Shown here: one piece after another, positions 47,559-63,268 of the stretch
Layout: every line of letters begins with the position of its first letter
Position numbering within the stretch: position 1 is the stretch's first letter
IMG/VR virus record: IMGVR_UViG_3300020576_008020
DNA: 64,000 nucleotides
DNA from: an uncultured virus (IMG/VR IMGVR_UViG_3300020576_008020)
Lineage: Duplodnaviria > Heunggongvirae > Uroviricota > Caudoviricetes
Reading direction: 5' to 3' (one strand)
Notes under the pieces: generated by a model
Database searches by the model: none
What the model saw: only the letters and a program-made list of their open reading frames with translations
What the model was told of the DNA's origin: nothing
Program-made: the position numbers and the translations under genes

Positions 47559-47573
47559 GCAACATTCGTGCCA
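47559..47573 (-). promoter_or_regulatory. sigma54-type promoter embedded in a 12-bp inverted repeat
   Basis: TGGCACG-AATG-TTGC; IR arms at 47555-47566 and 47574-47585. Confidence 0.75.
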
Positions 47574-48037: not shown

Positions 48038-48382
48038 CTAGCTGGATTTTGCAATAATTTCTCGTATGCGTTCTTCTTTCCAGGCATCCGGGTATGTTGC
48101 CAGCGACCATTCAATGTATTTACGCACTATCTCTGGATTATCTTTGGTCATTTGCTGTAATGTTAGCGAGCAATTGTACCACCGCGTGCTAAGCAGCCAT
48201 GCAAAATATGGAGCCTGACTTTGTGTTTCTACTATCGTCCGAAAGCCCTGTATTGCATCATAATCGTCTTGTATCGTAGGCGAAAAATGCGGTGGTATCG
48301 CCATAATAAAATTTCGCTGATTTAACTCATTTTGAACCCTAAGCTCGGTTGTGTCAGCACCAAAAAAAAGATGGTCGGTCAT
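48038..48382 (-). CDS. hypothetical protein
   Basis: start at MTDHLFF, downstream of sigma54 site. Confidence 0.6.
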   Translation of the reverse strand: MTDHLFFGADTTELRVQNELNQRNFIMAIPPHFSPTIQDDYDAIQGFRTIVETQSQAPYFAWLLSTRWYNCSLTLQQMTKDNPEIVRKYIEWSLATYPDAWKEERIREIIAKSS

Positions 48383-48414
48383 TGTTATGAAAATAATTAT
48401 TTCATAAATGTAAA

Positions 48415-48429
48415 GCAAAAAGTGTGCCA
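48415..48429 (-). promoter_or_regulatory. sigma54-type promoter
   Basis: TGGCACA-CTTT-TTGC. Confidence 0.7.
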
Positions 48430-48447
48430 AAAAGCAAAAGTAAAAAC

Positions 48448-49026
48448 TTACTTTTTTCTGATGTTGCGGATAATCCTGATGCTTCCTACAACAATAAGTG
48501 TTGCGGTTAGTGCCGCAGTGGCGGCTATGCCATATGTCGCAACAGGATTGGTATGATAAAAAATAGAAATGGAATTAAAGAATGTTTTCAAACGGGAGTC
48601 CAGCAGGCTAAATCCCTCTGCAATGTCCTCGTCGGTAATCATGTCAGCATACGGTTTGCCCAGCTCTACATTAAATTGAGCGCGCATAATTTTGGAAACA
48701 GTTGCCTGGTCGGTAGGAATGGGGCCATTAGCGTCAATGCCTGCATAGCTGGCTACGGTATTAATATATTTGGTGGTATCGTTCTCAAAATTTGGCGCAT
48801 ATCTGTGGATATAGCTGGTCAGCGTTTTGGTGTTGTGCTTTTGTATTGAGGAATAATAGTTGCTTAAAAAAGCGCGAATGCCCCATGGCATACTATCAAA
48901 TATGGCAAATCGGCCATCGCTTCCCACCTGGCCCAGCCAACCGGATTTTATATCGGATATGTTACCCGGATTGTTATTCCGTAATCCGCGGGGGTATTTG
49001 CTATTTCCTCTGAAGTCACTGGCCAT
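48448..49026 (-). CDS. P5-like virion / lysozyme-like protein with C-terminal TM
   Basis: PRGLRNNNPGNI, GRFAIF....GIRA, RYAP..ENDT..Y. Confidence 0.75.
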   Translation of the reverse strand: MASDFRGNSKYPRGLRNNNPGNISDIKSGWLGQVGSDGRFAIFDSMPWGIRAFLSNYYSSIQKHNTKTLTSYIHRYAPNFENDTTKYINTVASYAGIDANGPIPTDQATVSKIMRAQFNVELGKPYADMITDEDIAEGFSLLDSRLKTFFNSISIFYHTNPVATYGIAATAALTATLIVVGSIRIIRNIRKK

Positions 49027-49113
49027 TACATTATGGGTTTGACCGCAAAGGTAATGATATATGTGAAATTATCAAATTATACCGTTACATGTAGTATAAA
49101 GTAATGTTTTATT

Positions 49114-49460
49114 GTTGTATTTACCTTTTTTTGACAATGTGGTTTATGTGGTTTATGTGGTTTGCGATATTTTATGCTCTTCTCGTTGTAATTACCTTTT
49201 AAATTGTGGTCATTTACAACTTTTGCTAGAAGACGAAGATTTAATTGCTGTTGTAACTACCTTTCAAAATGTGGTCATTAACAACCAGATTTAAGAGGAA
49301 TAATCGTTCCCACACGTTGTAATTACCTTTCAAAATGTGGTCATTAACAATTCCTCCCGAATTATGCGAATACATGCCGGAGTTGTAACTACCTTTCAAA
49401 TTGAGGTCATTTACAACTTAGGGAAAAATGAAACTACTACCCTTCGTTGCAATTACCTTA
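49114..49460 (-). CRISPR. CRISPR mini-array: 4 full 36-bp repeats plus 2 degenerate/partial end repeats
   Basis: + strand GTTGTAAYTACCTTTYAAAWTGWGGTCATTWACAAY at 49185, 49250, 49316, 49382; unique spacers of 29, 30, 30, 28 bp; partial copies at 49446 and 49114. Confidence 0.92.
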
Positions 49461-49625
49461 AATGCAGTTTTTGTTGGAACAAATATTTTTTTAAAAAAAA
49501 GGTATTTAGGAGTGGGAACCTGCCCCTCCTACTAAGGACGTACAACCGCCCCAACAAATTTTATCTTATGTCAAAGAACTTTGCGCTAAACCTTATTTTA
49601 GGCTTTGCCTGGTCTAGTGTAATGC
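49461..49625 (-). ncRNA. candidate tracrRNA / guide scaffold or array leader
   Basis: gap between effector stop and array; AGGAG..CTCCT hairpin 49508-49530, anti-repeat-like 49533-49546, boxA-like GTTCTTTGACA 49569-49579. Confidence 0.45.
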
Positions 49626-50825
49626 TTATGCTGGCTTTCCGCTTACCACAGCCGTTACCCCTTCGGCAGATTCTACTATTGCTTCCGGCTCTTTCTCCTC
49701 TTCACCAACTATCTCTACAATTATGCCCACCTTGGCGGCTTTGTACTTTATTTTGTCAGCCAGGTTATAATAGCTCCAGGACGCCAGCAGGAATTTGCCT
49801 TTTTCTGTGCCATCGTGCGTTTGCTCCACAACTTCCTCATAATTGTCCAGTACTATCTTTCCGATGCCGCGCTTGATGCAATAGTCAATTAGCATGCGGC
49901 TATACAGGTGCATGCGGTTGTTGATATAGTTATCTTCGGCTTTTTTAAACCGGTCCGTGGCTTGCATTTTTATGTCGCGACCCTTCCCTCCCTTATTGTA
50001 CTTGCTGGCTTTTTGTATTCTGGTTAGCGCTCCCTTAATAGCCAGGCGTCTGTACAGGTATTCTTCAGCCGTCCCTATATGAAAAAACTTATCTTTCTTC
50101 TCCAGTATAACAATGGGATAATTGAGGCTTAACCGGCAGGTGGCTACTTTTTTCTGTGACAATTTTATTTTTTCCTTATCAAAGGAGAAGACGGTCAGCA
50201 GAAACATTTTCATTTTTCCATTCCTTTTTTCCAGAACCAGGGAGGAATCACAAAGCTTGTAATCTGCCGTTACCAAGGCCCTGTCAAATATTTCTTCGTT
50301 ACGACTCAGGTCTTTACCAAAGTAGGTCTTGAACGGCAGGCCATATACAAAGAAAGTATAGTTACCATCTTCTTCACTTTTTTTCCAGTTGGATATATCC
50401 GCTGCCCGTATTGGCATGGGAATGTCTTTGCGAAATGAAGCCAGTGATTTGCGCCCTGTTTTTACATCAAAAGCATCAGTTTTGTATTTTTTGCAGACAA
50501 GCGTATTAAGACCGCTCAGCATACCCATTGGGCATTCTCCCTTAAATGCTTCGCTGAGCACCCGGTATGTGGTATTGTCCTTGCTGGTGGTCAGGATGCC
50601 ATCCTCATCTTTTTCAATGTTTGCAAGCTTTACCTTTACATTATCTGTAAGATAAAACAGGTCCTTAATGTTTTCCTGTAGGTGCTGGTGTGTAATAATC
50701 CAGTTGGCAGCCCTGTGTACTATTTTTTGCCAGGAAAATATTTTTGCAAAACTTTCTTTAAGCTGCGACTTTTCAACGTCAATGTTGACTTGTACTTTTC
50801 GGGTGATAACTATTTGTTTGTCCAT
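49626..50825 (-). CDS. nuclease-dead Cas12f-like (TnpB-derived) protein
   Basis: ITRKVQV N-terminus, GRKSLASFRKD, GGKGR, HLYSRMLIDYC, WSYYNL..KIKYKA..GI; RuvC-I reads TCRLSL, RuvC-II reads IVLDNY, no Zn finger or RuvC-III. Confidence 0.85.
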   Translation of the reverse strand: MDKQIVITRKVQVNIDVEKSQLKESFAKIFSWQKIVHRAANWIITHQHLQENIKDLFYLTDNVKVKLANIEKDEDGILTTSKDNTTYRVLSEAFKGECPMGMLSGLNTLVCKKYKTDAFDVKTGRKSLASFRKDIPMPIRAADISNWKKSEEDGNYTFFVYGLPFKTYFGKDLSRNEEIFDRALVTADYKLCDSSLVLEKRNGKMKMFLLTVFSFDKEKIKLSQKKVATCRLSLNYPIVILEKKDKFFHIGTAEEYLYRRLAIKGALTRIQKASKYNKGGKGRDIKMQATDRFKKAEDNYINNRMHLYSRMLIDYCIKRGIGKIVLDNYEEVVEQTHDGTEKGKFLLASWSYYNLADKIKYKAAKVGIIVEIVGEEEKEPEAIVESAEGVTAVVSGKPA

Positions 50826-51295
50826 TATTTATCAGTTGACTGTGGTAAAAGGTGATTTATTTCGTCTAACAACTTTCTGGTATTTGCGACAATACGCGGG
50901 TTGCATGTTCCTCTGGTGCCAAGAAAGTCAGCCAGTGATACTGGTTCTTTTACCAGCAATGGTAATTGTGTTTCAACGCCAATGTTAAAAAGGCAGACAT
51001 TGCTTTTTCCGTTGTATCCGGGTAGGCCATTTTCTTCCTGAATGTAATGTATGCGCTTGTCTACATGAAAAGTCATTAAACGCTGTAGCTTGCCATCTAT
51101 ATGCATTCTGTCGTCAAGGTAGCCCCAGCAGCAATCCTTATCAACAATGCAATTAATTGCAAGGATAAATGCATCAAACTCACTTACGTGGTAGGTTTCA
51201 TTTTCCGGCAATGGTGGCAGCGACTCGGTTATCAGCTTCTGTACCTTTTTTGCGTCAATGGGTTGTATCATCAATGTTTCTGCGGTATACGTCAT
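50825..51295 (-). CDS. hypothetical protein, stop overlaps the dCas12f start
   Basis: 156-aa ORF, TAATG overlap. Confidence 0.65.
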   Translation of the reverse strand: MTYTAETLMIQPIDAKKVQKLITESLPPLPENETYHVSEFDAFILAINCIVDKDCCWGYLDDRMHIDGKLQRLMTFHVDKRIHYIQEENGLPGYNGKSNVCLFNIGVETQLPLLVKEPVSLADFLGTRGTCNPRIVANTRKLLDEINHLLPQSTDK

Positions 51296-51304
51296 GTCGT
51301 TATC

Positions 51305-51589
51305 CTATTCTGGTATTTTAATGTTTTTCCCCGCCTCAGTAAGGCGATAAATATTGTGGTTAAGCGTTGTTTCCTTGTACTCTATAAGACCCTTGCTTAT
51401 CAGCACATCCATAGTTCGCATATTAAGCTTCATGGAAAACTGGTTTGTGTCAATAAAGCTGTTGTTTGTAAACCGGGATACTTTAATGCTTGCGCCATCC
51501 TGCTGCAAGGTTTTTATCATGTCCAACTGGGCAGCGCTTAGCTTAGGTGAGGGAGGAGATACTTTATTATTATTATCATTATTACCCAT
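51305..51589 (-). CDS. small winged-helix-like protein
   Basis: LSAAQ..MI...LISKGLI...YRLTEAG. Confidence 0.5.
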   Translation of the reverse strand: MGNNDNNNKVSPPSPKLSAAQLDMIKTLQQDGASIKVSRFTNNSFIDTNQFSMKLNMRTMDVLISKGLIEYKETTLNHNIYRLTEAGKNIKIPE

Positions 51590-51954
51590 TATGCTCCCTC
51601 TATCAGTTTTTTAACGTTGGCGATTACGGTTTTGTGTAGGATAACGTGCTTGCCTGAAGAATTATAAGCTATTTTACCTTCTGCAAGTGCTTTCTCTAGC
51701 GCAATAATATCCGAAGTTCCCAATAGTTTATTGGAAAGAAGTTCGTATTGCTTTTTAAAATCATAGTGGCTGGCCGACATAATACCTCCGTCAGCGGCTA
51801 TTTGAGCTGAATTTACGGTAAAAGAATTGCTGCTAATCCTGGTAATATTTGGATTGTCCGGCAGCGTAAGAATTTTAGCATATAGCTTATCTATAATGTC
51901 GCTTTTTTGCTTTTCTATAAGCTCCAGCGCTTTTTTGTAAGATGTTGTTTCCAT
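51589..51954 (-). CDS. hypothetical protein
   Basis: 121-aa ORF. Confidence 0.65.
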   Translation of the reverse strand: METTSYKKALELIEKQKSDIIDKLYAKILTLPDNPNITRISSNSFTVNSAQIAADGGIMSASHYDFKKQYELLSNKLLGTSDIIALEKALAEGKIAYNSSGKHVILHKTVIANVKKLIEGA

Positions 51955-52004
51955 AATGGTATTTATTGCAGGAATTGTATTACGGCTATGGCTGTAAAAA
52001 ATAA

Positions 52005-52166
52005 TTACTCATCGGTTAGTGTTACTAAAACTTGGCCATCGTCTCCGGGCGAAATAGACTCAATTGCTATTTTTCCGCTACAATCGTCTACGCCATTAAG
52101 GTCAATTACTAATTCTGCATTTGGGTCAAGGTGCCGTAAGTTTGATATTGCTTCTGATACAAGCAT
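52005..52166 (-). CDS. small hypothetical protein (53 aa, not in ORF track)
   Basis: MLVSEAISNLRHLDPNAELVI... Confidence 0.55.
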   Translation of the reverse strand: MLVSEAISNLRHLDPNAELVIDLNGVDDCSGKIAIESISPGDDGQVLVTLTDE

Positions 52167-52200
52167 GATTTTTTGTTTAGTTAATGTTAATGTCTATGCT

Positions 52201-52215
52201 GCAATTACCGTGCCA
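52201..52215 (-). promoter_or_regulatory. sigma54-type promoter heading the run that includes dCas12f
   Basis: TGGCACG-GTAA-TTGC. Confidence 0.8.
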
Positions 52216-52226
52216 AAAATTATTAC

Positions 52227-52913
52227 CTAACCTAAAATAACAACCTCGTTATCGATGCAATGGAGCATTCTGGATTCAACACTGTCCGTAAAATCTCCGG
52301 ACTCTTCTACGGTCTTCAGCAATACCTCCTCTATTTTACCATTTGCGCGGACATATACGTCACGTATCCATGCTTGCGGTATGGAGGGTAGGCCTAAAGA
52401 GGTTTTTGTTATTGCAATTACCTTGCCCTCCGCTTTCCAAAAATCATAAGCGCGCATATCTCCTTCTGTTGTTTGAACTAAATGATTTTTCATTATTGCT
52501 AAACCATTTTCAGGATGGTTTATAATTCCAAATTCATCCGGACCTATTTTATCATCAGAGATAAAACACAAATGGTTTGCTTGCTTCCAATTCGAATCGG
52601 TTGTGCCCTGTCTATGTGGCTCCTGAACGGCTGGCAATGAATTATTGCTGTCTTTAAGTGAAATGACAATGCCATCAGCGGCAGGCACCAAAACCACTCT
52701 TGCCTTCTTTGCCGAATACACCGCAATATATTTTTTCACATCATCCCTGGTCACATAGGCGCCGCCGGTAGATGGCTGGCTATCAAAAAAAGTTAGTTTG
52801 TCCAAATTATCATTGTCTACCCACCCCTCGTCGCGGCTATAGCGGTTCATTACGGCCAGCACGTCCTGCCATTCTTTTAAAGTAATTTTCCGCTCTTCTT
52901 TTGAGTTTGTCAT
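52227..52913 (-). CDS. hypothetical protein
   Basis: 228-aa ORF. Confidence 0.65.
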   Translation of the reverse strand: MTNSKEERKITLKEWQDVLAVMNRYSRDEGWVDNDNLDKLTFFDSQPSTGGAYVTRDDVKKYIAVYSAKKARVVLVPAADGIVISLKDSNNSLPAVQEPHRQGTTDSNWKQANHLCFISDDKIGPDEFGIINHPENGLAIMKNHLVQTTEGDMRAYDFWKAEGKVIAITKTSLGLPSIPQAWIRDVYVRANGKIEEVLLKTVEESGDFTDSVESRMLHCIDNEVVILG

Positions 52914-52924
52914 ATTAAATGTAA

Positions 52925-53428
52925 CTATCCTTTAATAATATGGTCAAAAACCAACTTGCCATCGTCAATCCTTTTCTTGTTTAGCTTTTTTTGCGCAATT
53001 ATGTCGTTTTGCGCAATTATGGTGCTATAATGGCTGTTGTTGACCATTACCTTATAATACTTCATTCCGCGGTAGGTTTCCGGTATCCAGTCGCCTAAAT
53101 AAACAAAATGCTCTTCGGCCCCAATGACTTGCATTAATTCGTCGGGCTGAACGCGGGAAGAGCAATTAGTTGTGATGTACCTAGCCAGCTTGGCCATTTT
53201 AAAAAGATTATCCGGATTGTCCGTTTCTACAATAAATCTCATGGCATACCAGTCATAACCTTCTGCATTGCCCACGGTATACTGAAAGGATATAGTGCCA
53301 ATTGGCTCTAAGGTATCAGAGGTAGGCATATCCGGGTACCGTTTGTCCAGAATCTGAATATATTTCATGATATATCCGTTTTTTGGAGGATGCGTAGTTG
53401 TCCGAACTTTTGTTTTCATTGTCTTCAT
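52925..53428 (-). CDS. hypothetical protein
   Basis: 167-aa ORF. Confidence 0.65.
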   Translation of the reverse strand: MKTMKTKVRTTTHPPKNGYIMKYIQILDKRYPDMPTSDTLEPIGTISFQYTVGNAEGYDWYAMRFIVETDNPDNLFKMAKLARYITTNCSSRVQPDELMQVIGAEEHFVYLGDWIPETYRGMKYYKVMVNNSHYSTIIAQNDIIAQKKLNKKRIDDGKLVFDHIIKG

Positions 53429-53441
53429 ATACCGTTATCAT

Positions 53442-53456
53442 GCAATTCTCGTGCCA
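53442..53456 (-). promoter_or_regulatory. sigma54-type promoter
   Basis: TGGCACG-AGAA-TTGC. Confidence 0.8.
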
Positions 53457-53657
53457 AAAATTATCTTTGAAGGTAAAAATATGTTGGCTCAGTATTATAG
53501 TGCGTGCATATGTATTCCTTGGTCAGGTGTGATGCGGCTCGCATGGGTAGGCCATGAATAAACATGCCGTCAATAAGCCATTCAAGTATTTTGCCTTTTT
53601 CGTGCAAAAGTTGCTGGTAATCAATTTCTTGCGCCTGTTGCGGCATATCCTGTAGTG

Positions 53658-55802
53658 CTAGTCCCATTTTAGATTATGATAATTTTTAGATTTAACCCGC
53701 TTTTCAATCATGCGGATAGCCAGCACATCGTCTTTGTCTATTGGGCGCTTGATAGTATTCTTCCATTTCCACCAGTCAATGCAGCGAATAACGCGCTCCC
53801 TTATATCCTCCATTAAGTACCCAGGCATCTGGCTGGTCAGGGAGCCGGTGAGTAGCTGTATAAATGGCGCCTCTTTTTGCTGCTCCTCCTGCATAAGTTT
53901 TTTGGTGCGCTGGAGGACCGGCATCATGTCCAGGTAGTTGGGCCTGTCAACGCGGGACTCCAGGTAAAAATCAATATCCTCCTCCGATAACCTGTCCCAG
54001 TGCAGAATAAATTTGTCGTCCGGCCATATCTGCCAGCGGACGCGCTTGCTGCGGGTAACAAACCGGCATTGTTCATCATTCCAGATGGTGTCCTCTGGGG
54101 TGTACATGATAGTTAAATGCGGCTTCATGTACGTTACATAATATTCCTTGATATAATCGTCAGTACCCTCAACGTTTTTGCTATGTGGTTTTGTCAATGG
54201 GTCGTCAGGCATATAGTGTCTTAATATATGATTCTGCCTGGTCTTTATTACCTGTAGGACATTTGCTTTCTGCTGCTCGTATTCATCTTCTTTAAGCCAT
54301 TCTGTTTTCTCCTCCTTGTAAATCTCTACATCGTATATCCCGGCGGGTGGAGTGTCCGGCAAGTTGTGGTGATATTTTAGGGAACCAAACAATCTCTCCT
54401 GTTTTTCCTCTTTTCCGTATTTGCCCCAGAAGAGACTGCCATATTCTCCGGTCACAAGTACCCTGCTGCCGTGGGTAATCCCTTCATTTAATTGCTTACG
54501 CCAGTCACTAAAGGTCAGTCTGCCGGATGGTAATGTAGCCTCGTCGTCATAAACAAAGTTTACCAGCTCTTTGGTTTCTTCCAGGTTAAAGATATTTATC
54601 TTGCAAGGTAATGGATGAAATACCTCGCTGCGGTCAATCAGACCCTGCATAAGCATAGCCCTTTTGCGATAATGGTACATCGAATCCTCAAACTTTTCCT
54701 TGTGCTTTTCTTTTTCGTAGGAAGAGCGATGCTCTGATACGTTCATTTCATCAAAAAGCGTCTGAAGTTCTTTGCGTAGCGGGAATAGCCTTGGCAGTAT
54801 AACAAGCTTTTCTGTAAATACCCGGTACAGGCAATCGCCGTTGCGTATAAGCAGGTAAGTGCTGTTTATGTTTTCCTGATTCATAAATGAGCCGCGAATC
54901 GGGTCTCCCTCATTGTAATCTTTTGGAAACCTGCGGGGCCTGAATACGACCATGCCCTTTTCCTCCGGTAATAGCTTTTTAAAATTTTCTCCCTTGCCTT
55001 TAACCAGCCATTCATCAAACCAGTCAATATTAGTGTAATCCAGACCGCCATTTTCCCAGTGCCCTATTTCCTCATCCATATATAATACGGCTTGCCTGAA
55101 GGTAATAGGGGTGTCTACCGGCGCTTTCTTTCCTTCCTGTATGCAAAACAACTCTTCATCAATACCCATGTACAGCTCTATAATGGTAATGACGCGCATT
55201 ATCTTTTTAATTTTCTGACCAAATTCTGCCAAAACTCCGTACATCTTGTCTTTTACGGCTTTCAACTCGCTCATTTGCCGCTGCATTTCCCAGTTTACAA
55301 AAGCGGTAACCAGGACTGCGGTCTGTTTCTTGGCGGTCAGGTCTTGCTGTAGGGCAACTAACGACTCCTTGCTGCCCTTTGACATTAGGGCTGTTTCGCT
55401 GTTTACAATATCGGAATCTGCGTCCTTATATAAACTGATGTCCGCTTTGCCATTTATTATAGCCAGCGCTTTTTCCCGCCAGTCAGCAAAAGAACCCTCT
55501 GTTATTTTCGTATAGTGGTGCCGCTCAATGTAGCTACTAAATTCTTCGACGCTATGTGCGCTGCCATAGCTATCTGAGAATTCATTACAGTCCCAATCAG
55601 TAGCATGGCCATATCCGATATAGGATATTTTACCTTCTTTTTTGTCGACCTTTATTTTAACTATGCGAATAATTTCGCAACGGTCATTTTCATCACAAAT
55701 AAAGGTGTCTCCAACATTGAGGCCATCAAGCCCGGCATCGGTCAATTCCTTTCTGGCTGTCTCTGGCAGGTCGCTGCGCGATATGATAGCTTTGTCTGAC
55801 AT
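53658..55802 (-). CDS. large hypothetical phage protein
   Basis: 714 aa, coiled coil, IELYMG, FRQ..LYMDEE, QGLIDRS. Confidence 0.75.
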   Translation of the reverse strand: MSDKAIISRSDLPETARKELTDAGLDGLNVGDTFICDENDRCEIIRIVKIKVDKKEGKISYIGYGHATDWDCNEFSDSYGSAHSVEEFSSYIERHHYTKITEGSFADWREKALAIINGKADISLYKDADSDIVNSETALMSKGSKESLVALQQDLTAKKQTAVLVTAFVNWEMQRQMSELKAVKDKMYGVLAEFGQKIKKIMRVITIIELYMGIDEELFCIQEGKKAPVDTPITFRQAVLYMDEEIGHWENGGLDYTNIDWFDEWLVKGKGENFKKLLPEEKGMVVFRPRRFPKDYNEGDPIRGSFMNQENINSTYLLIRNGDCLYRVFTEKLVILPRLFPLRKELQTLFDEMNVSEHRSSYEKEKHKEKFEDSMYHYRKRAMLMQGLIDRSEVFHPLPCKINIFNLEETKELVNFVYDDEATLPSGRLTFSDWRKQLNEGITHGSRVLVTGEYGSLFWGKYGKEEKQERLFGSLKYHHNLPDTPPAGIYDVEIYKEEKTEWLKEDEYEQQKANVLQVIKTRQNHILRHYMPDDPLTKPHSKNVEGTDDYIKEYYVTYMKPHLTIMYTPEDTIWNDEQCRFVTRSKRVRWQIWPDDKFILHWDRLSEEDIDFYLESRVDRPNYLDMMPVLQRTKKLMQEEQQKEAPFIQLLTGSLTSQMPGYLMEDIRERVIRCIDWWKWKNTIKRPIDKDDVLAIRMIEKRVKSKNYHNLKWD

Positions 55803-55811
55803 GTATGGTCT

Positions 55812-56555
55812 TTAGTAGGCGTCTATTTTGTCAATCACAAGTATGATTGTTTCAATTGTTGTGCCACTTTCTTTAAAAGCCCCGGCAGGCACATCTTCGG
55901 TATACACATCCATGCTTTGTAGCCACTTCTTAAATTCCAGAGCCTTTCGCTCAGGTCCAAACTGGTAGTGCTTGGAGCAAATGACCGACATACGTCCGCC
56001 GGGATTCAGACAATCGTACATCTTGTAAATATGGTCAATATCCTGATTTTTGGTAAATGGCGGGTTGGCTACAATCCTGTCAAAGGTTTGCGTGCAGGTC
56101 AGGAAGTCGGAGCCCAGCAGTTCAAACTGCGGTATTTTTGATAATCGGCCTTGGTTGAGCGGCATTAATTCATACCCGAATACCTTTTTGTGTGAGCCGT
56201 ACAATTTCAGGATGGCGTTTACCATGGCGCCAGCGCCGGCACTTGGTTCACAAATGGTATCTTTTTCCCCTATGCAGGCCAGTTTTGCAACTCGCTCAGC
56301 CAGGCCATCCGGCGTAGCAAAAAACTGAAATTCTTTTTTAAGGTTACGCTTTTCTCCATTGGCAATTTGTGCCAGCAGCTCGGTAGGGTCTTCCTGGAAG
56401 ACAAAGCCCATGACTTTGCGGCCTACCCATTTCCCGCCAATCAGCTCCAAAGCCTGCGCGACCTCGTTATAAAGCTTGCGCTCCAGTTGCCCTGCCGGGA
56501 GCCGTACAACCATACCGTCAACGGTACATTTTTGTAAAATTTCCTGTTTGTTCAT
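55812..56555 (-). CDS. DNA adenine methyltransferase (class I SAM-dependent)
   Basis: QFFATP, EPSAGAG, DRIVANPPF, FKESGT. Confidence 0.85.
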   Translation of the reverse strand: MNKQEILQKCTVDGMVVRLPAGQLERKLYNEVAQALELIGGKWVGRKVMGFVFQEDPTELLAQIANGEKRNLKKEFQFFATPDGLAERVAKLACIGEKDTICEPSAGAGAMVNAILKLYGSHKKVFGYELMPLNQGRLSKIPQFELLGSDFLTCTQTFDRIVANPPFTKNQDIDHIYKMYDCLNPGGRMSVICSKHYQFGPERKALEFKKWLQSMDVYTEDVPAGAFKESGTTIETIILVIDKIDAY

Positions 56556-56577
56556 TGTTTGTGTGTGTAATTAAAAA

Positions 56578-57225
56578 TTATAAAAGTTCTTTTCTGTCTA
56601 ATATCCAGCGGTTGTCGCTGCCGGAATCCCGAAGCACTACATTTCTTTTTGCGGCCTCAGTTTTTGTCATTTCTTCGCGGTCAAGGGTTCTTTCTTCGCT
56701 ATCGTCTTGCCCGGATGGATTGTACAGAATATGCATTTCTGCTATTTCGGTATCAGCCAATTTTTTCAGAGTGTTGCCAAATTTTTCCGTGGCCTCATTG
56801 AATATTTTTTCTGTGGCTATCCTTGCAATTTGCTCGTTGTGCCAGGTGATGAAATCTATTACGGCAAGGAACGTAGCTTCTTTTTTAGAAGCTCTAGTGC
56901 GTTTTATTCGGAATTTACCAAATTTAGTCCAAATGCAGCATTCGCATGCATTTATAGAAACCCACACCTGATTAATGTCTTTAAGTCGTAGGGCCTCTAT
57001 CTTCTCCACCACAGGCATAAGCCAATCCCATGAGCGGTGGTATGGTGTAAATTGTTCCCAACACCACGGAAGGTCTTGCCAACGCTGTGTTATATGAGTA
57101 TCATTAAAACCCCATCCTTCAAACTGCGACCCGTCCGCAGCGTATATAGTTCTTGTTGCGCAACCCATAAACTCCGCTATCAGCTTGTTACCTTCTATTA
57201 TCTGTTCTTGTGTCATTGTAAACAA
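56578..57225 (-). CDS. hypothetical phage protein
   Basis: GNKLIAEFMG, YHRSWDWLMPVVEKIE. Confidence 0.7.
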   Translation of the reverse strand: MFTMTQEQIIEGNKLIAEFMGCATRTIYAADGSQFEGWGFNDTHITQRWQDLPWCWEQFTPYHRSWDWLMPVVEKIEALRLKDINQVWVSINACECCIWTKFGKFRIKRTRASKKEATFLAVIDFITWHNEQIARIATEKIFNEATEKFGNTLKKLADTEIAEMHILYNPSGQDDSEERTLDREEMTKTEAAKRNVVLRDSGSDNRWILDRKELL

Positions 57226-57477
57226 AATTTAATTATTTTTCTTTTACATCCTCTACTGTAGGGCTGGTAAATGATATTTCAATAGATTTTTGAACTTTTA
57301 ATCTGCTCACACTGCCAAGTATTATATTCTTTATAATACTTTCTCGTATGGCCGTCTCTGTCTCTTCGGCGGTTTTATAATATATTTCTTGTATACAGTT
57401 AGTAACAACAAATCCGTTGTCTATTCGCTTAACAATTATTTTCTCCATCGCTTTTTTTAGTTGATACCATACATAAT

Positions 57478-57492
57478 GCAATTCCCGTGCCA
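57478..57492 (-). promoter_or_regulatory. sigma54-type promoter
   Basis: TGGCACG-GGAA-TTGC. Confidence 0.8.
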
Positions 57493-57497
57493 AAAAT

Positions 57498-57527
57498 TAT
57501 AAAGGCCACCAGATAGCGGCCTTTATA
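57498..57527 (-). terminator. hairpin terminator after DUF932 gene
   Basis: TATAAAGGCC / GGCCTTTATA. Confidence 0.6.
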
Positions 57528-57552
57528 TTAATATTTATTAGCACAAAACGAC

Positions 57553-58683
57553 TTAGTTGTTCTTTGCGTTGAACTTCTTTTCGCTGTAGGGCTTATCAAA
57601 TTTGCTTATCTTTTCTACGTGCTCAATGATGGCGCCCTCTACATCATATTGCAGGTCCGCATGCATGTTTTGGGACTCCCTGGTCACCGCATGCAGAATT
57701 CCGGAGGCGTCATGTACGCCATCGTTGAGAAAGTAGTTCATGATATTTTTTCGGTGGTCTTCAGGTATGGACAATTCCCTGCACACATTTTTTACGGCAT
57801 CCGTGGGGTATTCCAGCTTAATATTACGGGTTGCTGCCACGCGCTCTACCATCTTGCCTAGGTAGTCTTTGTTAAGGAATGTGGCTACGGCATCCTGTAC
57901 CTGGCTGATAATCAGCTCGTAATTTTTATTTCTGGTGCGCTCGCTCCAGATAATTTCTCCCGGCGCCAGACGCTCACCCAGGTGTATTTTACTGAAGCTA
58001 TCGTCTTTAATGGTCAATCCATTGTTGCAGATGGGGGCCACCGCGCGGCTCATAACCTCAAATTTGCCGCAGCCAATTTCTGAGTTGGCAAGAGAAAAGC
58101 CGGACATGATACCGTAGCCAACACCATTATTTCCTTTGCGCATGTAGTCTTTCAAAAAGGCCTCGGCCTGTATTTCTACTTCCGGACATACAACTTGCAG
58201 GTACATGCGCTTTTCCGTAACCTCGGCTTTCAGTATCTCTACCTTTACCCGCATGCGGGAGATGGCCTCAAGTGCTGCATACAGCACATCGTAGTTGTCG
58301 ATGCAGTTGTAGGAATTGGAAAGGAAGGCCCGCGCTATAGCTGTTCTGTCGTCTTTGAGGCAGCGCAGCAGGTACTTGGACACGCCGTCCTCGCGTAGCC
58401 AGGCATTGATGTTCTCTTCAAACAGTGCCGGCCTTTCCACCATCATTTTTTTGAAATATATAAGCGGAATTTCCAGCTTTTTTGCTATCTGCTCATGGCA
58501 AAAGTCGGAAACCTCATATGCGGCAACATCCGTAGGATTTTCTCCGGTCAGAAACAGGTGCTTATCTGCATAGGTAATTGTCTTGGCCGGAGCGATAAAG
58601 TCTTTTTTCTTCTCGTTTTGCTCTTTCAGCGTCGCTTCTATGCTTGTCAGCACATCCTTGGTTCTAAATTGCATCGTACTCAT
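57553..58683 (-). CDS. DUF932-like phage protein
   Basis: QIA.KL.IP..Y, ARAFLSN.Y..IDN, NSEIG.G, C.NGL, HLG. Confidence 0.75.
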   Translation of the reverse strand: MSTMQFRTKDVLTSIEATLKEQNEKKKDFIAPAKTITYADKHLFLTGENPTDVAAYEVSDFCHEQIAKKLEIPLIYFKKMMVERPALFEENINAWLREDGVSKYLLRCLKDDRTAIARAFLSNSYNCIDNYDVLYAALEAISRMRVKVEILKAEVTEKRMYLQVVCPEVEIQAEAFLKDYMRKGNNGVGYGIMSGFSLANSEIGCGKFEVMSRAVAPICNNGLTIKDDSFSKIHLGERLAPGEIIWSERTRNKNYELIISQVQDAVATFLNKDYLGKMVERVAATRNIKLEYPTDAVKNVCRELSIPEDHRKNIMNYFLNDGVHDASGILHAVTRESQNMHADLQYDVEGAIIEHVEKISKFDKPYSEKKFNAKNN

Positions 58684-60386: not shown

Positions 60387-60803
60387 GTGCTAAGAGCCTA
60401 CAAATACCGATTGAACTTAAACAATGAACAGAAAACGTTCATAAATAAGTCATTTGGATGTGGCAGGGTAGTGTATAATTATTGTTTGCAGCGGCGCATT
60501 GAACTATATAAAGATGGTAAGCAGAAAATAAGTGCTTTTGACCTGTGTAAGGAAATAGTGCAGCTTAAAAAGACTGAAGGCTATTATTGGTTATCTGAAG
60601 TAGACCACCAATCATTGTGCTGTTCGGTTATGAATATGGACAACGCCTACAAGCATTTTTTTAACCGTGGTTTCGGTTTCCCAAAGTTCAAGTGTAAGTA
60701 TTTCAGGCAGTCTTGCAAATTTACTCAAGGCATAAAAATAGATTTCTCGGCCAATAAAGTACGTTTTCCTAAAATAGGGGTAGTGCGTCCTTTTGAATGT
60801 TAA
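60387..60803 (+). pseudogene. tnpB: truncated tnpB (N-terminal part only)
   Basis: LRAYKYRL, FGCGRVVYN, GFPKFK, FPKIG, then stop; no RuvC; TATCTTTG at 60372-60379. Confidence 0.85.
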
Positions 60804-61315: not shown

Positions 61316-63268
61316 TTATTTAACCACAGCAAGCCGTTCACTTTTAATTAGACTACCAGCTAATATAATGCTGACTATATAATGTCCACTCGGCAAATCC
61401 TGAGTACTAAGACTTATCCTATGTTCTCCTTCTGGTATGTTGTCATTATGCAATCGCTCACTATACTTTCCATCAACACTTCTAATTTCGATAGTACAAA
61501 TACCTTCGTAGTCGGTATTAAATTCAATGGTGAAATTATTTGAGGCGGGATTAGGATATAGTTTTGTATTTACTGCCTCGTTGACATTTATGGTATTTAA
61601 TGCAAAGAAGTTACCTTTTGCTATTTCGCCTATCCATGTGCCACCAGTATTATCAGCTTTTCCATAGCAGCCAGAAGCCCAAACAATTGGGGTTAATGAA
61701 TTTTGTTTTCTGCATAAACCTGTATAATCCCCCCATCTTCCCATGTTGTGTGGTATTGCTTGGTAGTCCCATACAAAACTGCTGCCTGATTTTATTAATA
61801 GAGCGGGTGAGTAATTATTGCTAGCATCAGAACTATATGCGACATAGTATGGGTATGTTGTTGATAAGCTAACATTAGAACACATAATTACATTTTCATC
61901 AGCACCATTTAATCCATAAGAGGCAATATTGGAATGACAAAAATCCCCTGATGTGGTTCCAAATAGCGACCAGCTTGATGGCGGCACAGATGCGCTCGAG
62001 GAACTCCAGATAAGCTTGGCTTTCATTGCATAATTGGCAGAAGCCGAAGCGGAGCTAATAGAAGTAAACGTGAAATAAACACTCCATATTGATGTGGTAG
62101 GATTTCTTATAACAAACCCACCAGTTACTCTGCAATCGCCAACATCCAATTGGTTTGTACTTCCTAGTTGAAAGGCATCATAGCCTATTTCATAGTGAGG
62201 AGAAGCAACATCAATACCAGCAAAAGCATCTGTTGGTTCATACCATGTCCAGAATTGTACAGAGTTACCAATTTGTGATTTTGTGCTGACAAAAGCCATT
62301 GTAGTTGAATATAATCCTGCTTGCCCATAACTTAATGGATAAATAGTAAACCCCTGGTTACCTAAATCATCCAATGGATTTGACCTTTGTAAAGCTGTCC
62401 ATCCAGTTGTAGAGCCACTTAATATTCCAGCCTTAGAGAATCTGAATATAATAGGATATTGAAAAGAATTACTCGAATTATACGCATTGATACTAACATA
62501 AAGAGAGCTTGCATTAATACCAATACTTGGATAATCCATCCAGATGCCCGCTGCTGGTGGTGTATATGTCCAATAACTCCATGCGCCAAGAGGATTTGAC
62601 GTAAGTGGATATGCAATAATTAACTTTGATGTTGACGGTGTTGACCCATCCAAAACAACAAGAAAAAACCTATCTAAAACGTCATCGTAAATTACTTTAG
62701 CATCGTAAAGAACACCTGAAAAACTACTGCTACCTCCCAAAAATGCGTTTATTGAATGCGAGGCCAGCGGAGTTCCAAGAGTATCTTTTATTGTAATGTT
62801 AGAGTTTGTTGTGCTGATTATTATTCCTGAATTTGATATTGCTATGCTATTATCATTCGGGAAGGTTGTGGCGTCATCTGAACTATTAAAGTGATGATTT
62901 AGATAAATCGGTGGTGCCGCGGTTGTTTTATGCCCGTTATTGTTTTCATCTATGATAAATCCTGCTGGAGATTCCTTTTTAATTTGCAGCGTACTATCGC
63001 CACCGTCTTTTCTAAATTTTCTCTTTGATTTTTTAAACTCCCTCAATGCCGTGTCGCCACCTTTATTAAATTCTTGCTTATTATGAATTTTAAAACGTAA
63101 ATCTTTTACAGTATCAGCCTTTATGGGTCTATTATGCGGTGTTCCAGAAATTGGTGTAGCCTTTTTTACATTTTTATTATTAGGAGTATAATTTGGCGCA
63201 CATCTTTGTCCAAATAAAATGAAGGTCTGTAATACTAAGACCAACAATAAAATCAATTTGCCTTTCAT
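61316..63268 (-). CDS. secreted protein with T9SS type A C-terminal sorting domain
   Basis: signal peptide, DYPSIG, RWGDY, KLYPNPA...DLPSGHYIV...K. Confidence 0.85.
   Translation of the reverse strand: MKGKLILLLVLVLQTFILFGQRCAPNYTPNNKNVKKATPISGTPHNRPIKADTVKDLRFKIHNKQEFNKGGDTALREFKKSKRKFRKDGGDSTLQIKKESPAGFIIDENNNGHKTTAAPPIYLNHHFNSSDDATTFPNDNSIAISNSGIIISTTNSNITIKDTLGTPLASHSINAFLGGSSSFSGVLYDAKVIYDDVLDRFFLVVLDGSTPSTSKLIIAYPLTSNPLGAWSYWTYTPPAAGIWMDYPSIGINASSLYVSINAYNSSNSFQYPIIFRFSKAGILSGSTTGWTALQRSNPLDDLGNQGFTIYPLSYGQAGLYSTTMAFVSTKSQIGNSVQFWTWYEPTDAFAGIDVASPHYEIGYDAFQLGSTNQLDVGDCRVTGGFVIRNPTTSIWSVYFTFTSISSASASANYAMKAKLIWSSSSASVPPSSWSLFGTTSGDFCHSNIASYGLNGADENVIMCSNVSLSTTYPYYVAYSSDASNNYSPALLIKSGSSFVWDYQAIPHNMGRWGDYTGLCRKQNSLTPIVWASGCYGKADNTGGTWIGEIAKGNFFALNTINVNEAVNTKLYPNPASNNFTIEFNTDYEGICTIEIRSVDGKYSERLHNDNIPEGEHRISLSTQDLPSGHYIVSIILAGSLIKSERLAVVK

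What the first reader, a model, noticed from the sequence alone, without database searches (positions are those of the whole stretch)
49114..50825. Nuclease-dead Cas12f-like protein with its own CRISPR mini-array in a phage-like element: candidate multiplex RNA-guided regulator
Seen: a 399-aa protein with Cas12f/TnpB architecture whose RuvC-I (normally GxDxG) reads TCRLSL and whose RuvC-II (normally ExL) reads IVLDNY. It ends without the Zn finger or RuvC-III. About 165 bp downstream on the same strand lies an array of 36-bp repeats with unique 28-30 bp spacers. No two full repeats are identical, and I recognise no cas1/cas2/cas4. Knowledge (from recall): the protein resembles Bacteroidota dCas12f proteins reported to work with an ECF sigma (sigmaE) in RNA-guided transcription. 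Here no sigma gene is adjacent and the context is phage genes downstream of a sigma54-type promoter (52201). Inference: a frozen guide set used to repress or activate host or competitor genes, possibly by borrowing a host sigma, rather than to cut DNA.
Basis: partly seen in the sequence, partly recalled or inferred. Interest (0 to 1): 0.95.

Follow-up and report, generated by a model that had tools for sequence, protein, structure and literature searches.

The report
Phage-borne dead Cas12f with guide array
A large Bacteroidota phage carries a nuclease-dead Cas12f, a conserved helper RNA and a short CRISPR array but no sigma factor, so it probably binds rather than cuts DNA, perhaps to silence rival phages.

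Summary
ORF 49626-50825(-) is a true dCas12f: E 7e-86 to PDB 9n9c, model TM 0.72-0.82, RuvC-I D->R, RuvC-II E->D, ending before the Zn finger and RuvC-III. An array starts 166 nt downstream: four 36-nt repeats plus two 14-nt 3' half-repeats.

New here: a structured scaffold RNA (49577-49493) lies between gene and array. It is conserved in all 15 relatives' loci with enough flank. 10 of 13 pairs show compensatory changes, and a loop hexamer co-varies with the repeat 3' end, as a tracr anti-repeat would.

The window looks like a large phage and is syntenic with a 211-kb contig. Relatives sit in phage genomes rated 93-100% complete that lack a sigma-70 region-2 match. Sigma homologues: 0 of 20 phage/metagenome loci, 78 of 80 bacterial loci. 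In my tree, phage/array forms branch below the sigma-linked clade.

The window's spacers found no target. In two related phages, three spacers nearly match the phage's own genes, including terL, on the sense strand. The repeat is 31/36 identical to a Cas13b-linked repeat.

Most likely this is binding-only interference or repression. That is inferred, not shown. It is a new variant of a published kind (Hoffmann 2026).

The parts
49626..50825 (-). dCas12f gene (399 aa). It has REC/WED plus a truncated RuvC. The catalytic RuvC-I Asp is replaced by Arg and the RuvC-II Glu by Asp. There is no Zn finger or RuvC-III. The last ~25 residues form an acidic, low-confidence tail.
   Evidence: PDB 9n9c E 7.3e-86. 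NCBIfam guided_TnpB 8e-12, below its cut-off. AF2 pLDDT 78.7. Foldseek top hits 9n9c_A and 9n9m_A, TM 0.72-0.82. Motif alignment.
49493..49577 (-). Conserved structured scaffold (tracr-like) RNA. It has a 5' motif TCTTTGAC, hairpin 1 (GGGCG-GTTGTA-CGTCC, 49551-49536), hairpin 2 (about 49530-49507), AATACC and a T8 run (49500-49493). The hairpin-1 loop GTTGTA is complementary to the repeat 3' end TACAAC.
   Evidence: Alignment A3 of 16 copies from 12 loci. RNAalifold gave 13 pairs, 10 with compensatory changes. Loop and repeat end co-vary. No Rfam family matched. Only one copy was found in the 64-kb window.
49446..49459 (-). Leader-proximal 3' half-repeat H0 (AAGGTAATTGCAAC), followed by the 28-nt spacer S0 (49445-49418).
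   Evidence: The same layout (scaffold, short linker, half-repeat) occurs twice in L011 and in L012.
49185..49417 (-). Four full 36-nt repeats: R1 49417-49382, R2 49351-49316, R3 49285-49250, R4 49220-49185. Spacers: S1 49381-49352, S2 49315-49286, S3 49249-49221.
   Evidence: The 14 nt at the 3' end of each repeat are AAGGTA[A/G]TTACAAC in all four.
49084..49184 (-). Degenerate end of the array. It holds a 57-nt interval S4 (49184-49128, with ACCACATAA x3 at 49163-49137), the terminal half-repeat H5 (49127-49114, AAGGTAAATACAAC) and a possible last guide of about 30 nt.
50825..52215 (-). Upstream part of the putative operon. It starts with the sigma54-like motif at 52201-52215, followed by small ORFs 52005-52166, 51589-51954, 51305-51589 (weak HTH-type hits) and 50825-51295 (156 aa). 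The last ORF's stop overlaps the dCas12f start.
   Evidence: The 156-aa and 121-aa ORFs are conserved only in L011.

Best explanation
This is a working, phage-borne derivative of a type V-F CRISPR system that has lost its nuclease. It has three parts.

1. The dCas12f protein (49626-50825, minus strand).
2. A tracr-like scaffold RNA (about 49577-49493). Its hairpin-1 loop pairs with the last 6 nt of each repeat.
3. A mini-array giving up to six guides, each made of the 3' part of a repeat followed by a spacer.

The ribonucleoprotein should find double-stranded DNA by guide complementarity and stay bound without cutting.

The phage encodes no sigma partner, and neither do its relatives. In related phages the spacers look as if they were taken from genes of close relatives. 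The most likely outcome is therefore binding-only interference: a block to transcription and/or replication of competing phages or other mobile elements. This resembles what Cas12m does for plasmids.

Shown here: the identity and fold of the protein, loss of the catalytic residues, conservation and covariation of the scaffold, co-occurrence of the array, the phage context and the absence of sigma. Inferred: RNA loading, DNA binding, repression as the outcome, and what the targets are.

The confidence of 0.5 is for the whole statement, including the binding-only, anti-competitor outcome. That the locus is a functional dCas12f-guide RNA module I hold at about 0.85.
For: Protein:
- E 7.3e-86 to the solved 'nuclease-deactivated Cas12f' 9n9c over residues 7-370.
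- The AF2 model's best PDB matches are 9n9c_A and 9n9m_A.
- D->R and E->D at the catalytic positions, with truncation before the Zn finger and RuvC-III.
- The RuvC-II position varies freely in 33 homologues.

RNA:
- The scaffold is present downstream or upstream of the gene in all 15 loci with enough flank: the window, L001, L002, L004-L008, L010-L012 and L015-L018.
- 10 of 13 predicted pairs show compensatory changes.
- The loop hexamer pairs with the repeat end at 5-6 of 6 positions in 10 of 10 loci. There are three independent compensatory types: GTTGTA/TACAAC, GCTGTA/TACAGC and GTTGTG/CACAAC, plus GTTCGG/TCGAAC in L004, whose repeat is otherwise unrelated.
- The half-repeats keep only the 3' handle that a Cas12f-type crRNA needs.

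Context:
- The window carries phage-type genes and is syntenic with a 211-kb contig.
- Homologues lie beside a major capsid and tail tube gene (L005), RecT (L001), CI/antirepressor/AbiH (L008) and integrase plus endolysin (L006).
- Three virus records rated 93-100% complete have no Sigma70_r2 match.
- A sigma homologue was found in 0 of 20 phage/metagenome loci against 78 of 80 bacterial loci.

Targets in relatives:
- Two L006 spacers match the phage's own terL-like gene (28 of 30) and a 414-aa ORF (27 of 30).
- One L002 spacer matches 30 of 31 in the ORF just upstream of dcas12f.
- All three matches are on the sense strand, and 4 of the 6 mismatches are synonymous third-codon changes.

Precedent: Cas12m protects by binding rather than cutting (abstracts of PMC11013384 and PMC10442227).
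Against: - No target was found for any window spacer. Searches covered the window itself, GenBank phages, exact 20-mers of S1-S3 in IMG/VR and 401 sampled Bacteroidota genomes.
- The target evidence comes from effectors only 42-53% identical to the window's. There are only three protospacers, with no shared flanking motif (5' flanks CTG, TTT, ATC). No exact protospacer exists in IMG/VR.
- The window's repeats are degenerate and one interval is aberrant (57 nt), which could mean decay.
- The closest characterised relative (Fta dCas12f) is an activator working with sigmaE, not a repressor (PMC13472631 abstract and section 5). A host sigmaE with the special C-terminal domain cannot be excluded because the host is unknown.
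- No phage structural gene lies in the window itself.
- No expression or processing data were examined.
Confidence: 0.5

Rival explanations
1. RNA-guided transcription activator. The phage dCas12f docks a host-encoded sigmaE (one with the dCas12f-binding C-terminal domain) at guide-specified sites and starts transcription there, as in the Flagellimonas system.
For: The protein is 39-42% identical to Fta dCas12f in the structure-based alignment and shares its truncated RuvC. That truncated RuvC is the surface the sigmaE C-terminal domain complements (passages of 10.1101/2025.06.10.658880). 453 relatives exist in Bacteroidota genomes, and 78 of the 80 kept loci have a sigma homologue, so potential hosts may carry such sigmas.
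Against: No sigma was found in the window, in 19 further phage/metagenome loci or in three near-complete phage genomes. In my tree the sigma-linked proteins form one nested clade (99 SH-aLRT) and the phage/array forms lie outside it. The three near-matches of relatives' spacers lie inside ORFs, not upstream of operons.
Confidence: 0.15
2. Regulator of the phage's own or the host's genes. The guides act as a fixed set of operators for a programmable repressor that controls the phage life cycle or host takeover, rather than fighting competitors.
For: The L002 spacer matches 30 of 31 in the gene immediately upstream of its own dcas12f. The window array is short and degenerate, as expected of fixed guides. 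Hoffmann et al. suggest repression of an efflux promoter for a CRISPR-linked dCas12f (PMC13472631, section 5 and the legend of Extended Data Fig. 1).
Against: No window spacer matches the 64-kb window beyond chance; the best is 20 of 30. Spacers turn over completely between syntenic relatives. The mismatches to the phages' own genes are mostly synonymous, which suggests capture from another allele.
Confidence: 0.15
3. Counter-defence by mimicry. The array and scaffold imitate host type VI-B (Cas13b) repeats. The phage RNAs, or the dCas12f-scaffold complex, would then sequester or jam host Cas13b crRNAs. This resembles RNA anti-CRISPRs, or the phage dead-Cas9 plus tracrRNA idea.
For: Window repeat R1 is 31 of 36 identical to the repeat of an array next to a Cas13b gene (NF038190, E 1.7e-246) in a genome where no dCas12f was found. 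That repeat ends in TACAAC, which would pair with the window's scaffold loop. Precedents: Racr (abstract of PMC10651486) and the dead Cas9 with tracr (passage in PMC11656645).
Against: Half-repeats that keep only the 3' handle suit Cas12f-type crRNAs rather than Cas13b; that Cas13b needs the whole repeat 3' of the spacer is recalled, not tested. Long arrays with unique spacers in relatives are not needed for a decoy. The three near-matching spacers are sense-strand and so could not pair with the mRNA. Only one of 401 sampled genomes showed such an array.
Confidence: 0.1
4. Decaying remnant. The array and perhaps the protein no longer function.
For: All four repeats differ from each other. One spacer interval is 57 nt with an internal tandem repeat. 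The terminal units are half-repeats.
Against: The ORF is intact, with homologues at 94%, 84% and 78% identity. The 14-nt 3' handle is kept in all six units. The scaffold is intact, with a perfect 6 of 6 loop-repeat match. The same half-repeat layout recurs in L011 and L012, so it is a design and not damage.
Confidence: 0.08

Closest known systems
dCas12f-sigmaE RNA-guided transcription systems of Bacteroidota (Hoffmann et al., Nature 2026, PMC13472631; structures 9n9c/9n9m, Xiao et al., 10.1101/2025.06.10.658880)
   Same: Same protein family and fold, the same truncated and inactivated RuvC, and a guide RNA scaffold encoded next to the gene with the guide at the 3' side. Bacterial sigma-linked loci fetched here carry a similar scaffold core.
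   Different: No rpoE in the window or in any of the 19 other phage/metagenome loci. The guides come from a CRISPR-type array rather than single chimeric gRNAs. The context is phage rather than chromosomal. The protein lies outside the sigma-linked clade in my tree.
The 'distinct cluster' of CRISPR-array-associated dCas12f without rpoE (Hoffmann et al., section 5 and the legend of Extended Data Fig. 1a,b)
   Same: A dead Cas12f next to a CRISPR array, a putative gRNA/scaffold found by covariation upstream of the array, and a suggested repressor role.
   Different: The paper's text, as far as I searched it, has 0 occurrences of 'viral' and 'prophage', and its 1 occurrence of 'phage' is in the reference list. 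Its example is a Chitinophagaceae MAG targeting an efflux promoter. I could not see the figure or the supplements, so I cannot tell whether the window's clade is the same cluster.
Type V-M (Cas12m) binding-only CRISPR interference on plasmids and prophages
   Same: A compact type V effector without dsDNA cleavage, carried by mobile elements with an array and no adaptation genes. It protects by acting as a roadblock or by silencing (abstracts of PMC11013384 and PMC10442227; passages of PMC11656645).
   Different: Only distant structural likeness (Cas12m2 chains at TM 0.44-0.53, ranks 38-45). Cas12m keeps an altered but complete RuvC; that it needs no tracrRNA is recalled, not tested.
Canonical type V-F CRISPR-Cas12f nucleases
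   Same: Cas12f fold, a 36-nt repeat array downstream of the gene, and a tracr-like RNA between gene and array.
   Different: The catalytic D/E/D triad and the Zn finger are absent. No cas1, cas2 or cas4 was found in the window.
TldR (TnpB-like nuclease-dead repressors)
   Same: A nuclease-dead TnpB-superfamily protein thought to repress by RNA-guided binding (abstract of PMC13622181; listing for 10.1101/2023.11.30.569447).
   Different: TldRs derive from TnpB with a single omega-RNA-like guide and are not Cas12f-clade proteins with CRISPR arrays. The window protein's best matches are dCas12f and Cas12f, not TnpB.

Membership tests
dCas12f (nuclease-dead Cas12f, Hoffmann/Xiao) | Sequence and fold homology to the solved Fta dCas12f | tested here: met
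   phmmer E 7.3e-86 over residues 7-370. Foldseek E 1e-29, TM 0.72-0.82.
dCas12f (nuclease-dead Cas12f, Hoffmann/Xiao) | RuvC active site destroyed and C-terminus truncated (no Zn finger, no RuvC-III) | tested here: met
   D->R and E->D at the catalytic positions. The protein ends before the CxxC...CxxC and NADxN motifs of six longer homologues.
dCas12f (nuclease-dead Cas12f, Hoffmann/Xiao) | Guide RNA scaffold encoded beside the gene | tested here: met
   Conserved two-hairpin element with 10 of 13 covarying pairs. The mature RNA was not observed.
dCas12f-sigmaE RNA-guided transcription system | Operonic or nearby rpoE (sigmaE with C-terminal extension) | tested here: not met
   No sigma domain in 82 window ORFs. 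tblastn with 5 dCas12f-linked sigmas gave 0 of 20 phage/metagenome loci against 78 of 80 bacterial loci.
dCas12f-sigmaE RNA-guided transcription system | Associated HTH gene | tested here: inconclusive
   ORF 51305-51589 has only weak hits: PHROG transcriptional regulator 2.9e-4 and Pfam EarA-like 7e-4, below its cut-off.
dCas12f-sigmaE RNA-guided transcription system | Guide-dependent recruitment of RNAP and de novo transcription | not testable with these tools
   Needs ChIP-seq, RNA-seq or reporter assays.
Type V-F CRISPR-Cas (Cas12f nuclease) | Intact RuvC D-E-D triad with Zn finger | tested here: not met
Type V-F CRISPR-Cas (Cas12f nuclease) | CRISPR array plus tracrRNA with anti-repeat | tested here: met
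   Array shown. The 6-nt loop-to-repeat-end complementarity co-varies across loci. A longer anti-repeat duplex was not found.
Type V-F CRISPR-Cas (Cas12f nuclease) | Adaptation module (cas1/cas2/cas4) | tested here: not met
   None among 82 window ORFs or 67 ORFs flanking five viral loci.
Type V-M (Cas12m) | Homology to Cas12m | tested here: not met
   Cas12m2 chains rank 38-45 with TM 0.44-0.53, far below dCas12f and Cas12f.
Type V-M (Cas12m) | Spacers aimed at competing mobile elements | tested here: inconclusive
   No target for the window's spacers. Three near-matches to phage genes were found in two relatives.
RNA anti-CRISPR (Racr / solitary repeat units) | Phage-borne repeat copies mimicking the host's CRISPR repeat | tested here: inconclusive
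   Repeat R1 is 31 of 36 identical to a Cas13b-linked repeat in one of 401 sampled genomes. The host of this phage is unknown.

The most novel reading that the evidence does not exclude
Phage-borne, array-linked dCas12f may be the older state from which the bacterial sigmaE-coupled RNA-guided transcription systems arose. On this reading it serves phages as a cut-free, Cas12m-like weapon against related phages. Its arrays belong to the same repeat family as host type VI-B (Cas13b) arrays. The phage may therefore draw on the host's spacer-acquisition machinery. One pre-crRNA might even be readable in two registers: by dCas12f (handle plus downstream spacer, acting on DNA) and by Cas13b (upstream spacer plus full repeat, acting on RNA).
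Probability: 0.25. Interest if true: 0.85.

Novelty: new variant of a known kind. Interest (0 to 1): 0.62.

Why it matters
dCas12f was published in 2026 as a bacterial, sigmaE-coupled activator. A CRISPR-linked form was mentioned only briefly in that paper.

This locus and its relatives place array-linked, sigma-less dCas12f in phages, including three genomes rated 93-100% complete and a lineage with contigs over 200 kb. They also give it a defined RNA anatomy: a scaffold whose loop co-varies with the repeat end.

If these systems silence rival phages by binding alone, they would be a second, independent case after Cas12m of nuclease-free CRISPR interference on mobile elements. They would also be a plausible evolutionary bridge from Cas12f immunity to RNA-guided transcription.

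The effector is 399 aa and its tracr-like core is about 85 nt, so the system is also a compact candidate for programmable DNA binding. The repeat family shared with Cas13b arrays raises a testable question about cross-talk between a phage type V-derived system and host type VI-B.

Tried and rejected
- **Window spacers against the window:** the best scores were 20 of 30 and 14 of 16, which is chance level.
- **Window array against GenBank phages (blastn, E <= 10):** only weak partial hits, none covering a spacer. The L006 and L002 arrays gave no match.
- **Exact 20-mers of S1, S2 and S3 in IMG/VR:** 0 hits, so the window itself is not in that collection.
- **Exact 24-25-mers of the two self-matching spacers of L006 and L002:** only their own arrays were found.
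- **Window array against 401 Bacteroidota genomes:** 16 genomes had hits. All were repeat-like or fell in the low-complexity S4 interval, and none was a full spacer.
- **Megablast of window 40000-64000 against phages:** no match.
- **Rfam on 48900-49800:** nothing near a gathering score.
- **Pfam on the protein:** no family at E <= 10.
- **Genome-contig scan with the close-relative alignment A2:** no relative found.
- **Whole-genome search:** no genome is held for the window.
- **Earlier findings of this scan:** none by place or by sequence.
- **Complex prediction on two copies of residues 1-372:** 'no answer' (score 0.28, mark 0.42). This is evidence neither way.
- **The 156-aa upstream ORF as an obligate partner:** rejected, because it is conserved only in L011.
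- **A shared target-adjacent motif from the three protospacers:** none seen.
- **The 18-nt match of an L011 repeat to L015-L018 repeats on the opposite strand:** this reflects the partly palindromic repeat, not targeting.
Full report
**1. The observation**

The minus-strand ORF 49626-50825 encodes 399 aa. Pfam finds nothing. NCBIfam gives sub-threshold TnpB and Cas12f hits.

Against PDB sequences the best match is 9n9c, 'Nuclease-deactivated Cas12f', at E 7.3e-86 over residues 7-370. Active Cas12f enzymes follow at 1e-38 and weaker. An AlphaFold2 model built on 33 homologues has mean pLDDT 78.7 and a disordered tail from residue 375. Its best structural matches are 9n9c_A and 9n9m_A, with TM 0.72-0.82.

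I aligned the protein with six longer homologues that carry VGVDLGIN, an IKxE motif, a CxxC...CxxC Zn finger and NADYNA. The window protein has Arg at the RuvC-I Asp and Asp at the RuvC-II Glu. It ends before the Zn finger and RuvC-III. The RuvC-II position is D, E, K, T, V, N, S or R among 33 family members, so it is under no catalytic constraint.

**2. The array**

On the minus strand the order is as follows:

| Unit | Coordinates | Following spacer |
|---|---|---|
| half-repeat H0 | 49459-49446 | 28 nt |
| R1 | 49417-49382 | 30 nt |
| R2 | 49351-49316 | 30 nt |
| R3 | 49285-49250 | 29 nt |
| R4 | 49220-49185 | 57-nt interval with a 9-nt x3 tandem |
| half-repeat H5 | 49127-49114 | possible last guide, about 30 nt |

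The four full repeats are 31-34 of 36 identical to one another and none is identical to another. All six units keep the 3' handle AAGGTA-N3-(T/G)CAAC. The gap from the stop codon to H0 is 166 nt.

**3. What lies between gene and array**

The 166-nt gap is not a plain spacer. It holds an element that recurs upstream of every mini-array in relatives. It consists of a TCTTTGA motif, a hairpin GGGCG-GTTGTA-CGTCC, a second hairpin of variable sequence, then GAATAC and often a T run.

An alignment of 16 copies from 12 loci gives a consensus of 13 base pairs, of which 10 show compensatory changes.

The hairpin-1 loop is complementary to the last six bases of the local repeat, and it changes with them:

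| Loci | Loop | Repeat end |
|---|---|---|
| window, L005, L011, L012 | GTTGTA | TACAAC |
| L008, L015 | GCTGTA | TACAGC |
| L001 | GTTGTG | CACAAC |
| L004 (repeat otherwise unrelated) | GTTCGG | TCGAAC |

Pairing is 5-6 of 6 in 10 of 10 loci, against a mean of 4.8 for mismatched combinations.

This is what a tracrRNA anti-repeat, or the pseudoknot next to the guide in Cas12f/TnpB RNAs, would look like. The comparison with Cas12f RNA architecture is from my knowledge, not from a call. Rfam has no family for the element.

L011 and L012 each carry two 'scaffold plus mini-array' modules. Each begins with a half-repeat just after the scaffold. The half-repeats in the window are therefore a recurring design and not damage.

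**4. Context**

The window is almost entirely coded on one strand. It carries the following:
- T4 endonuclease V-like, RNase H, a DNA polymerase exonuclease subunit, a DnaC-like loader and a Suv3-like helicase
- MazG, several methyltransferases and TerC
- a polyvalent TopoIB/ART protein
- a transglycosylase/endolysin-like gene directly after the array
- a full TnpB

No capsid, terminase or tail gene lies within these 64 kb. A T9SS sorting domain (61316-63268) points to Bacteroidota.

The stretch 48038-58683 is syntenic, gene for gene, with part of a 211-kb metagenomic contig (L011). The effector there is 72% identical and the spacers are entirely different.

Homologues in IMG/VR sit beside a major capsid and tail-tube gene (L005), RecT (L001), CI repressor, antirepressor, AbiH and a reverse transcriptase (L008), and integrase plus endolysin (L006). 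PHROG families also populate L011, L012 and L017.

No whole genome is held for the window.

**5. Sigma**

- Pfam finds no sigma domain in 82 window ORFs.
- Three virus records that carry homologues (77.6, 76.6 and 65.4 kb; CheckV 100, 100 and 93% complete) have no Sigma70_r2 match. The same search hit 10 of 14 control genomes.
- In bacterial genomes the family is common. 453 relatives were found and the best 80 were kept, mostly from Sphingobacterium, Parapedobacter and Pedobacter. Five upstream ORFs of about 270 aa that I tested carry Sigma70 r4, and two of them a sub-threshold r2 match.
- tblastn with these five sigmas finds a homologue in 78 of the 80 bacterial loci. It finds one in 0 of 20 phage/metagenome loci (the window plus L001-L019).

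Three of the 20 loci are under 3 kb and could not have shown a sigma. The 80 bacterial loci are biased towards relatives of the query alignment.

**6. Phylogeny**

I built a quick IQ-TREE tree of 42 proteins:
- 14 phage/array rows
- 19 of the 80 bacterial rows, chosen by me to span the identity range
- 9 longer homologues as outgroup

Left out were L009 and L010 (distant), L014 (partial) and L016-L018 (near-copies of L015).

All short dead forms fall in one clade (99). The 19 sigma-linked rows form one nested clade (99). The phage/array rows are paraphyletic below it: L007 plus L008 branch first, then L006 and an 11-row group holding the window (94).

This fits the paper's picture of 'loss of CRISPR association, gain of rpoE' (legend of Fig. 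1b). It adds that the array-linked forms sampled here are phage-borne. The rooting rests on my choice of outgroup, and the Flavobacteriia clade is not sampled.

**7. Targets**

None of the window's spacers found a convincing match. Searches covered the window, GenBank phages, IMG/VR by exact 20-mers of S1-S3 and 401 sampled Bacteroidota genomes.

In relatives, searching each array against the whole virus record gave three near-matches outside the arrays.

*In G002 (L006, about 30 spacers):*
- One spacer matches 28 of 30 inside a terminase-large-subunit-like gene (phrog_6681, 5.9e-73). Both mismatches are synonymous third-codon changes.
- Another matches 27 of 30 inside a 414-aa ORF, with two of three mismatches synonymous.

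*In G001 (L002, about 20 spacers):*
- One spacer matches 30 of 31 inside the 110-aa ORF just upstream of dcas12f.

All three are on the sense strand.

The simplest reading is that these spacers were acquired from closely related phages. This is inference: exact protospacers are not in IMG/VR, there are only three cases, and their 5' flanks (CTG, TTT, ATC) share no motif. L008's array gave nothing.

**8. An unexpected link**

The 401-genome search found one genome (G134) with arrays whose 36-nt repeat is 31 of 36 identical to window R1 and ends in TACAAC. One of these arrays lies directly downstream of a Cas13b gene (NF038190, E 1.7e-246, above its cut-off). No dCas12f was found in that genome with this query.

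The phage's repeat family is therefore shared with type VI-B arrays. This may reflect common adaptation machinery, capture of a host array, or mimicry. I cannot tell which.

That Cas13b uses spacer-then-repeat crRNAs is recalled, not tested. If it holds, the sense orientation of the three near-matching spacers argues against RNA targeting by Cas13b for those spacers.

**9. Mechanism**

*Shown:* a dead Cas12f-fold protein, a covarying scaffold RNA matched to the repeat end, an array with conserved 3' handles, phage context and no sigma.

*Inferred:* the protein (probably as a dimer, as in 9n9c; my dimer prediction gave no verdict) binds scaffold plus crRNA and binds target DNA without cleavage.

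*Outcome:* I put about 0.5 on binding-only interference or repression aimed mainly at competing phages. The precedent is Cas12m (abstracts of PMC11013384 and PMC10442227; passages of PMC11656645). For the rivals I put:
- 0.15 on regulation of the phage's own or host genes
- 0.15 on sigmaE-dependent activation using a host sigma
- 0.1 on counter-defence by repeat mimicry or crRNA sequestration
- under 0.1 on decay

**10. Comparison with what is known**

The protein is a member of the dCas12f family. The locus is not a member of the dCas12f-sigmaE system, because the rpoE linkage was tested and not met. It is also not a canonical V-F system, because the nuclease and adaptation genes were tested and not met.

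It most resembles the 'distinct cluster' of array-linked dCas12f mentioned in one sentence and one legend of Hoffmann et al. I read the abstract, section 5 and searched passages, but saw no figures or supplements.

In the held library, my searches for dCas12f with sigma, for nuclease-dead Cas12f with phage-encoded arrays, and for dCas12f with phage listed no paper that describes a natural phage-borne dCas12f. I judged this from titles and abstracts. Subscription papers such as Altae-Tran 2023 were not searchable.

**11. Verdict**

This is a new variant of a known kind, with three additions worth follow-up: the phage-borne context, the scaffold-repeat covariation and the repeat family shared with Cas13b. 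Interest 0.62.

Noticed in passing
window 23209-60321, minus strand (11 sites, e.g. 52201-52215, 53442-53456, 48415-48429, 47559-47573): There are 11 exact matches to the sigma54-type -24/-12 consensus TGGCAC-N5-TTGC, all on the coding strand, against 0.18 expected. The motif also occurs 6 times in L011 and 5 times in L012, and in none of the other 111 loci. This phage lineage may use RpoN-type promoters or a look-alike of its own. No sigma54 or enhancer-binding protein was seen in the window.
   Followed up: partly
G134 (L112 3824-7538; L113 276-2776): This bacterial genome has Cas13b next to an array whose repeat is 31 of 36 identical to the window's. It also has a second, orphan array of the same repeat beside an RstR-like repressor and a tyrosine recombinase, which may be a prophage edge.
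   Followed up: partly
window 8099-9310 (-) and 60387-60803 (+): A full-length TnpB (403 aa) carries the HTH_OrfB, OrfB_IS605 and Cas12f1-like TNB domains. A 138-aa N-terminal TnpB fragment lies elsewhere in the same phage-like window. L012 carries a 52% identical TnpB.
   Followed up: no
window 9367-11928 (-): An 853-aa polyvalent protein combines a eukaryotic-type topoisomerase IB core with an ART-PolyVal ADP-ribosyltransferase domain.
   Followed up: no
window 1891-4906 (+): A plus-strand islet holds an IS1595 transposase, an EcoRI-like adenine methyltransferase (E 4.7e-120) and a GmrSD-N/HNH nuclease. It is set against the otherwise minus-strand genome.
   Followed up: no
L015, L016, L018 versus L017: Four near-identical loci from different metagenome records carry the same array, but L017 lacks one repeat-spacer unit (5 versus 6). 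This is a spacer gain or loss polymorphism.
   Followed up: no
L007 6663-7000: In this basal viral relative the scaffold is itself tandemly repeated about every 157 nt, and no 36-nt repeat array is present. It looks like an array of single guide RNAs.
   Followed up: no
L004 6919-7290 and 8132-8510: This dCas12f locus has an unrelated 36-nt repeat (period 73, 18 copies). The 3' end of the gene plus the scaffold is duplicated between two array blocks.
   Followed up: no
window 22206-22952 (-) and 61316-63268 (-): The phage-like window also carries a TerC-family membrane protein and a 650-aa protein with a T9SS C-terminal sorting domain.
   Followed up: no
window 49137-49163: A perfect 9-nt x3 tandem (ATGTGGTTT on the plus strand) sits inside the over-long interval between R4 and the last half-repeat. 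It may be a remnant of a rearranged unit.
   Followed up: no
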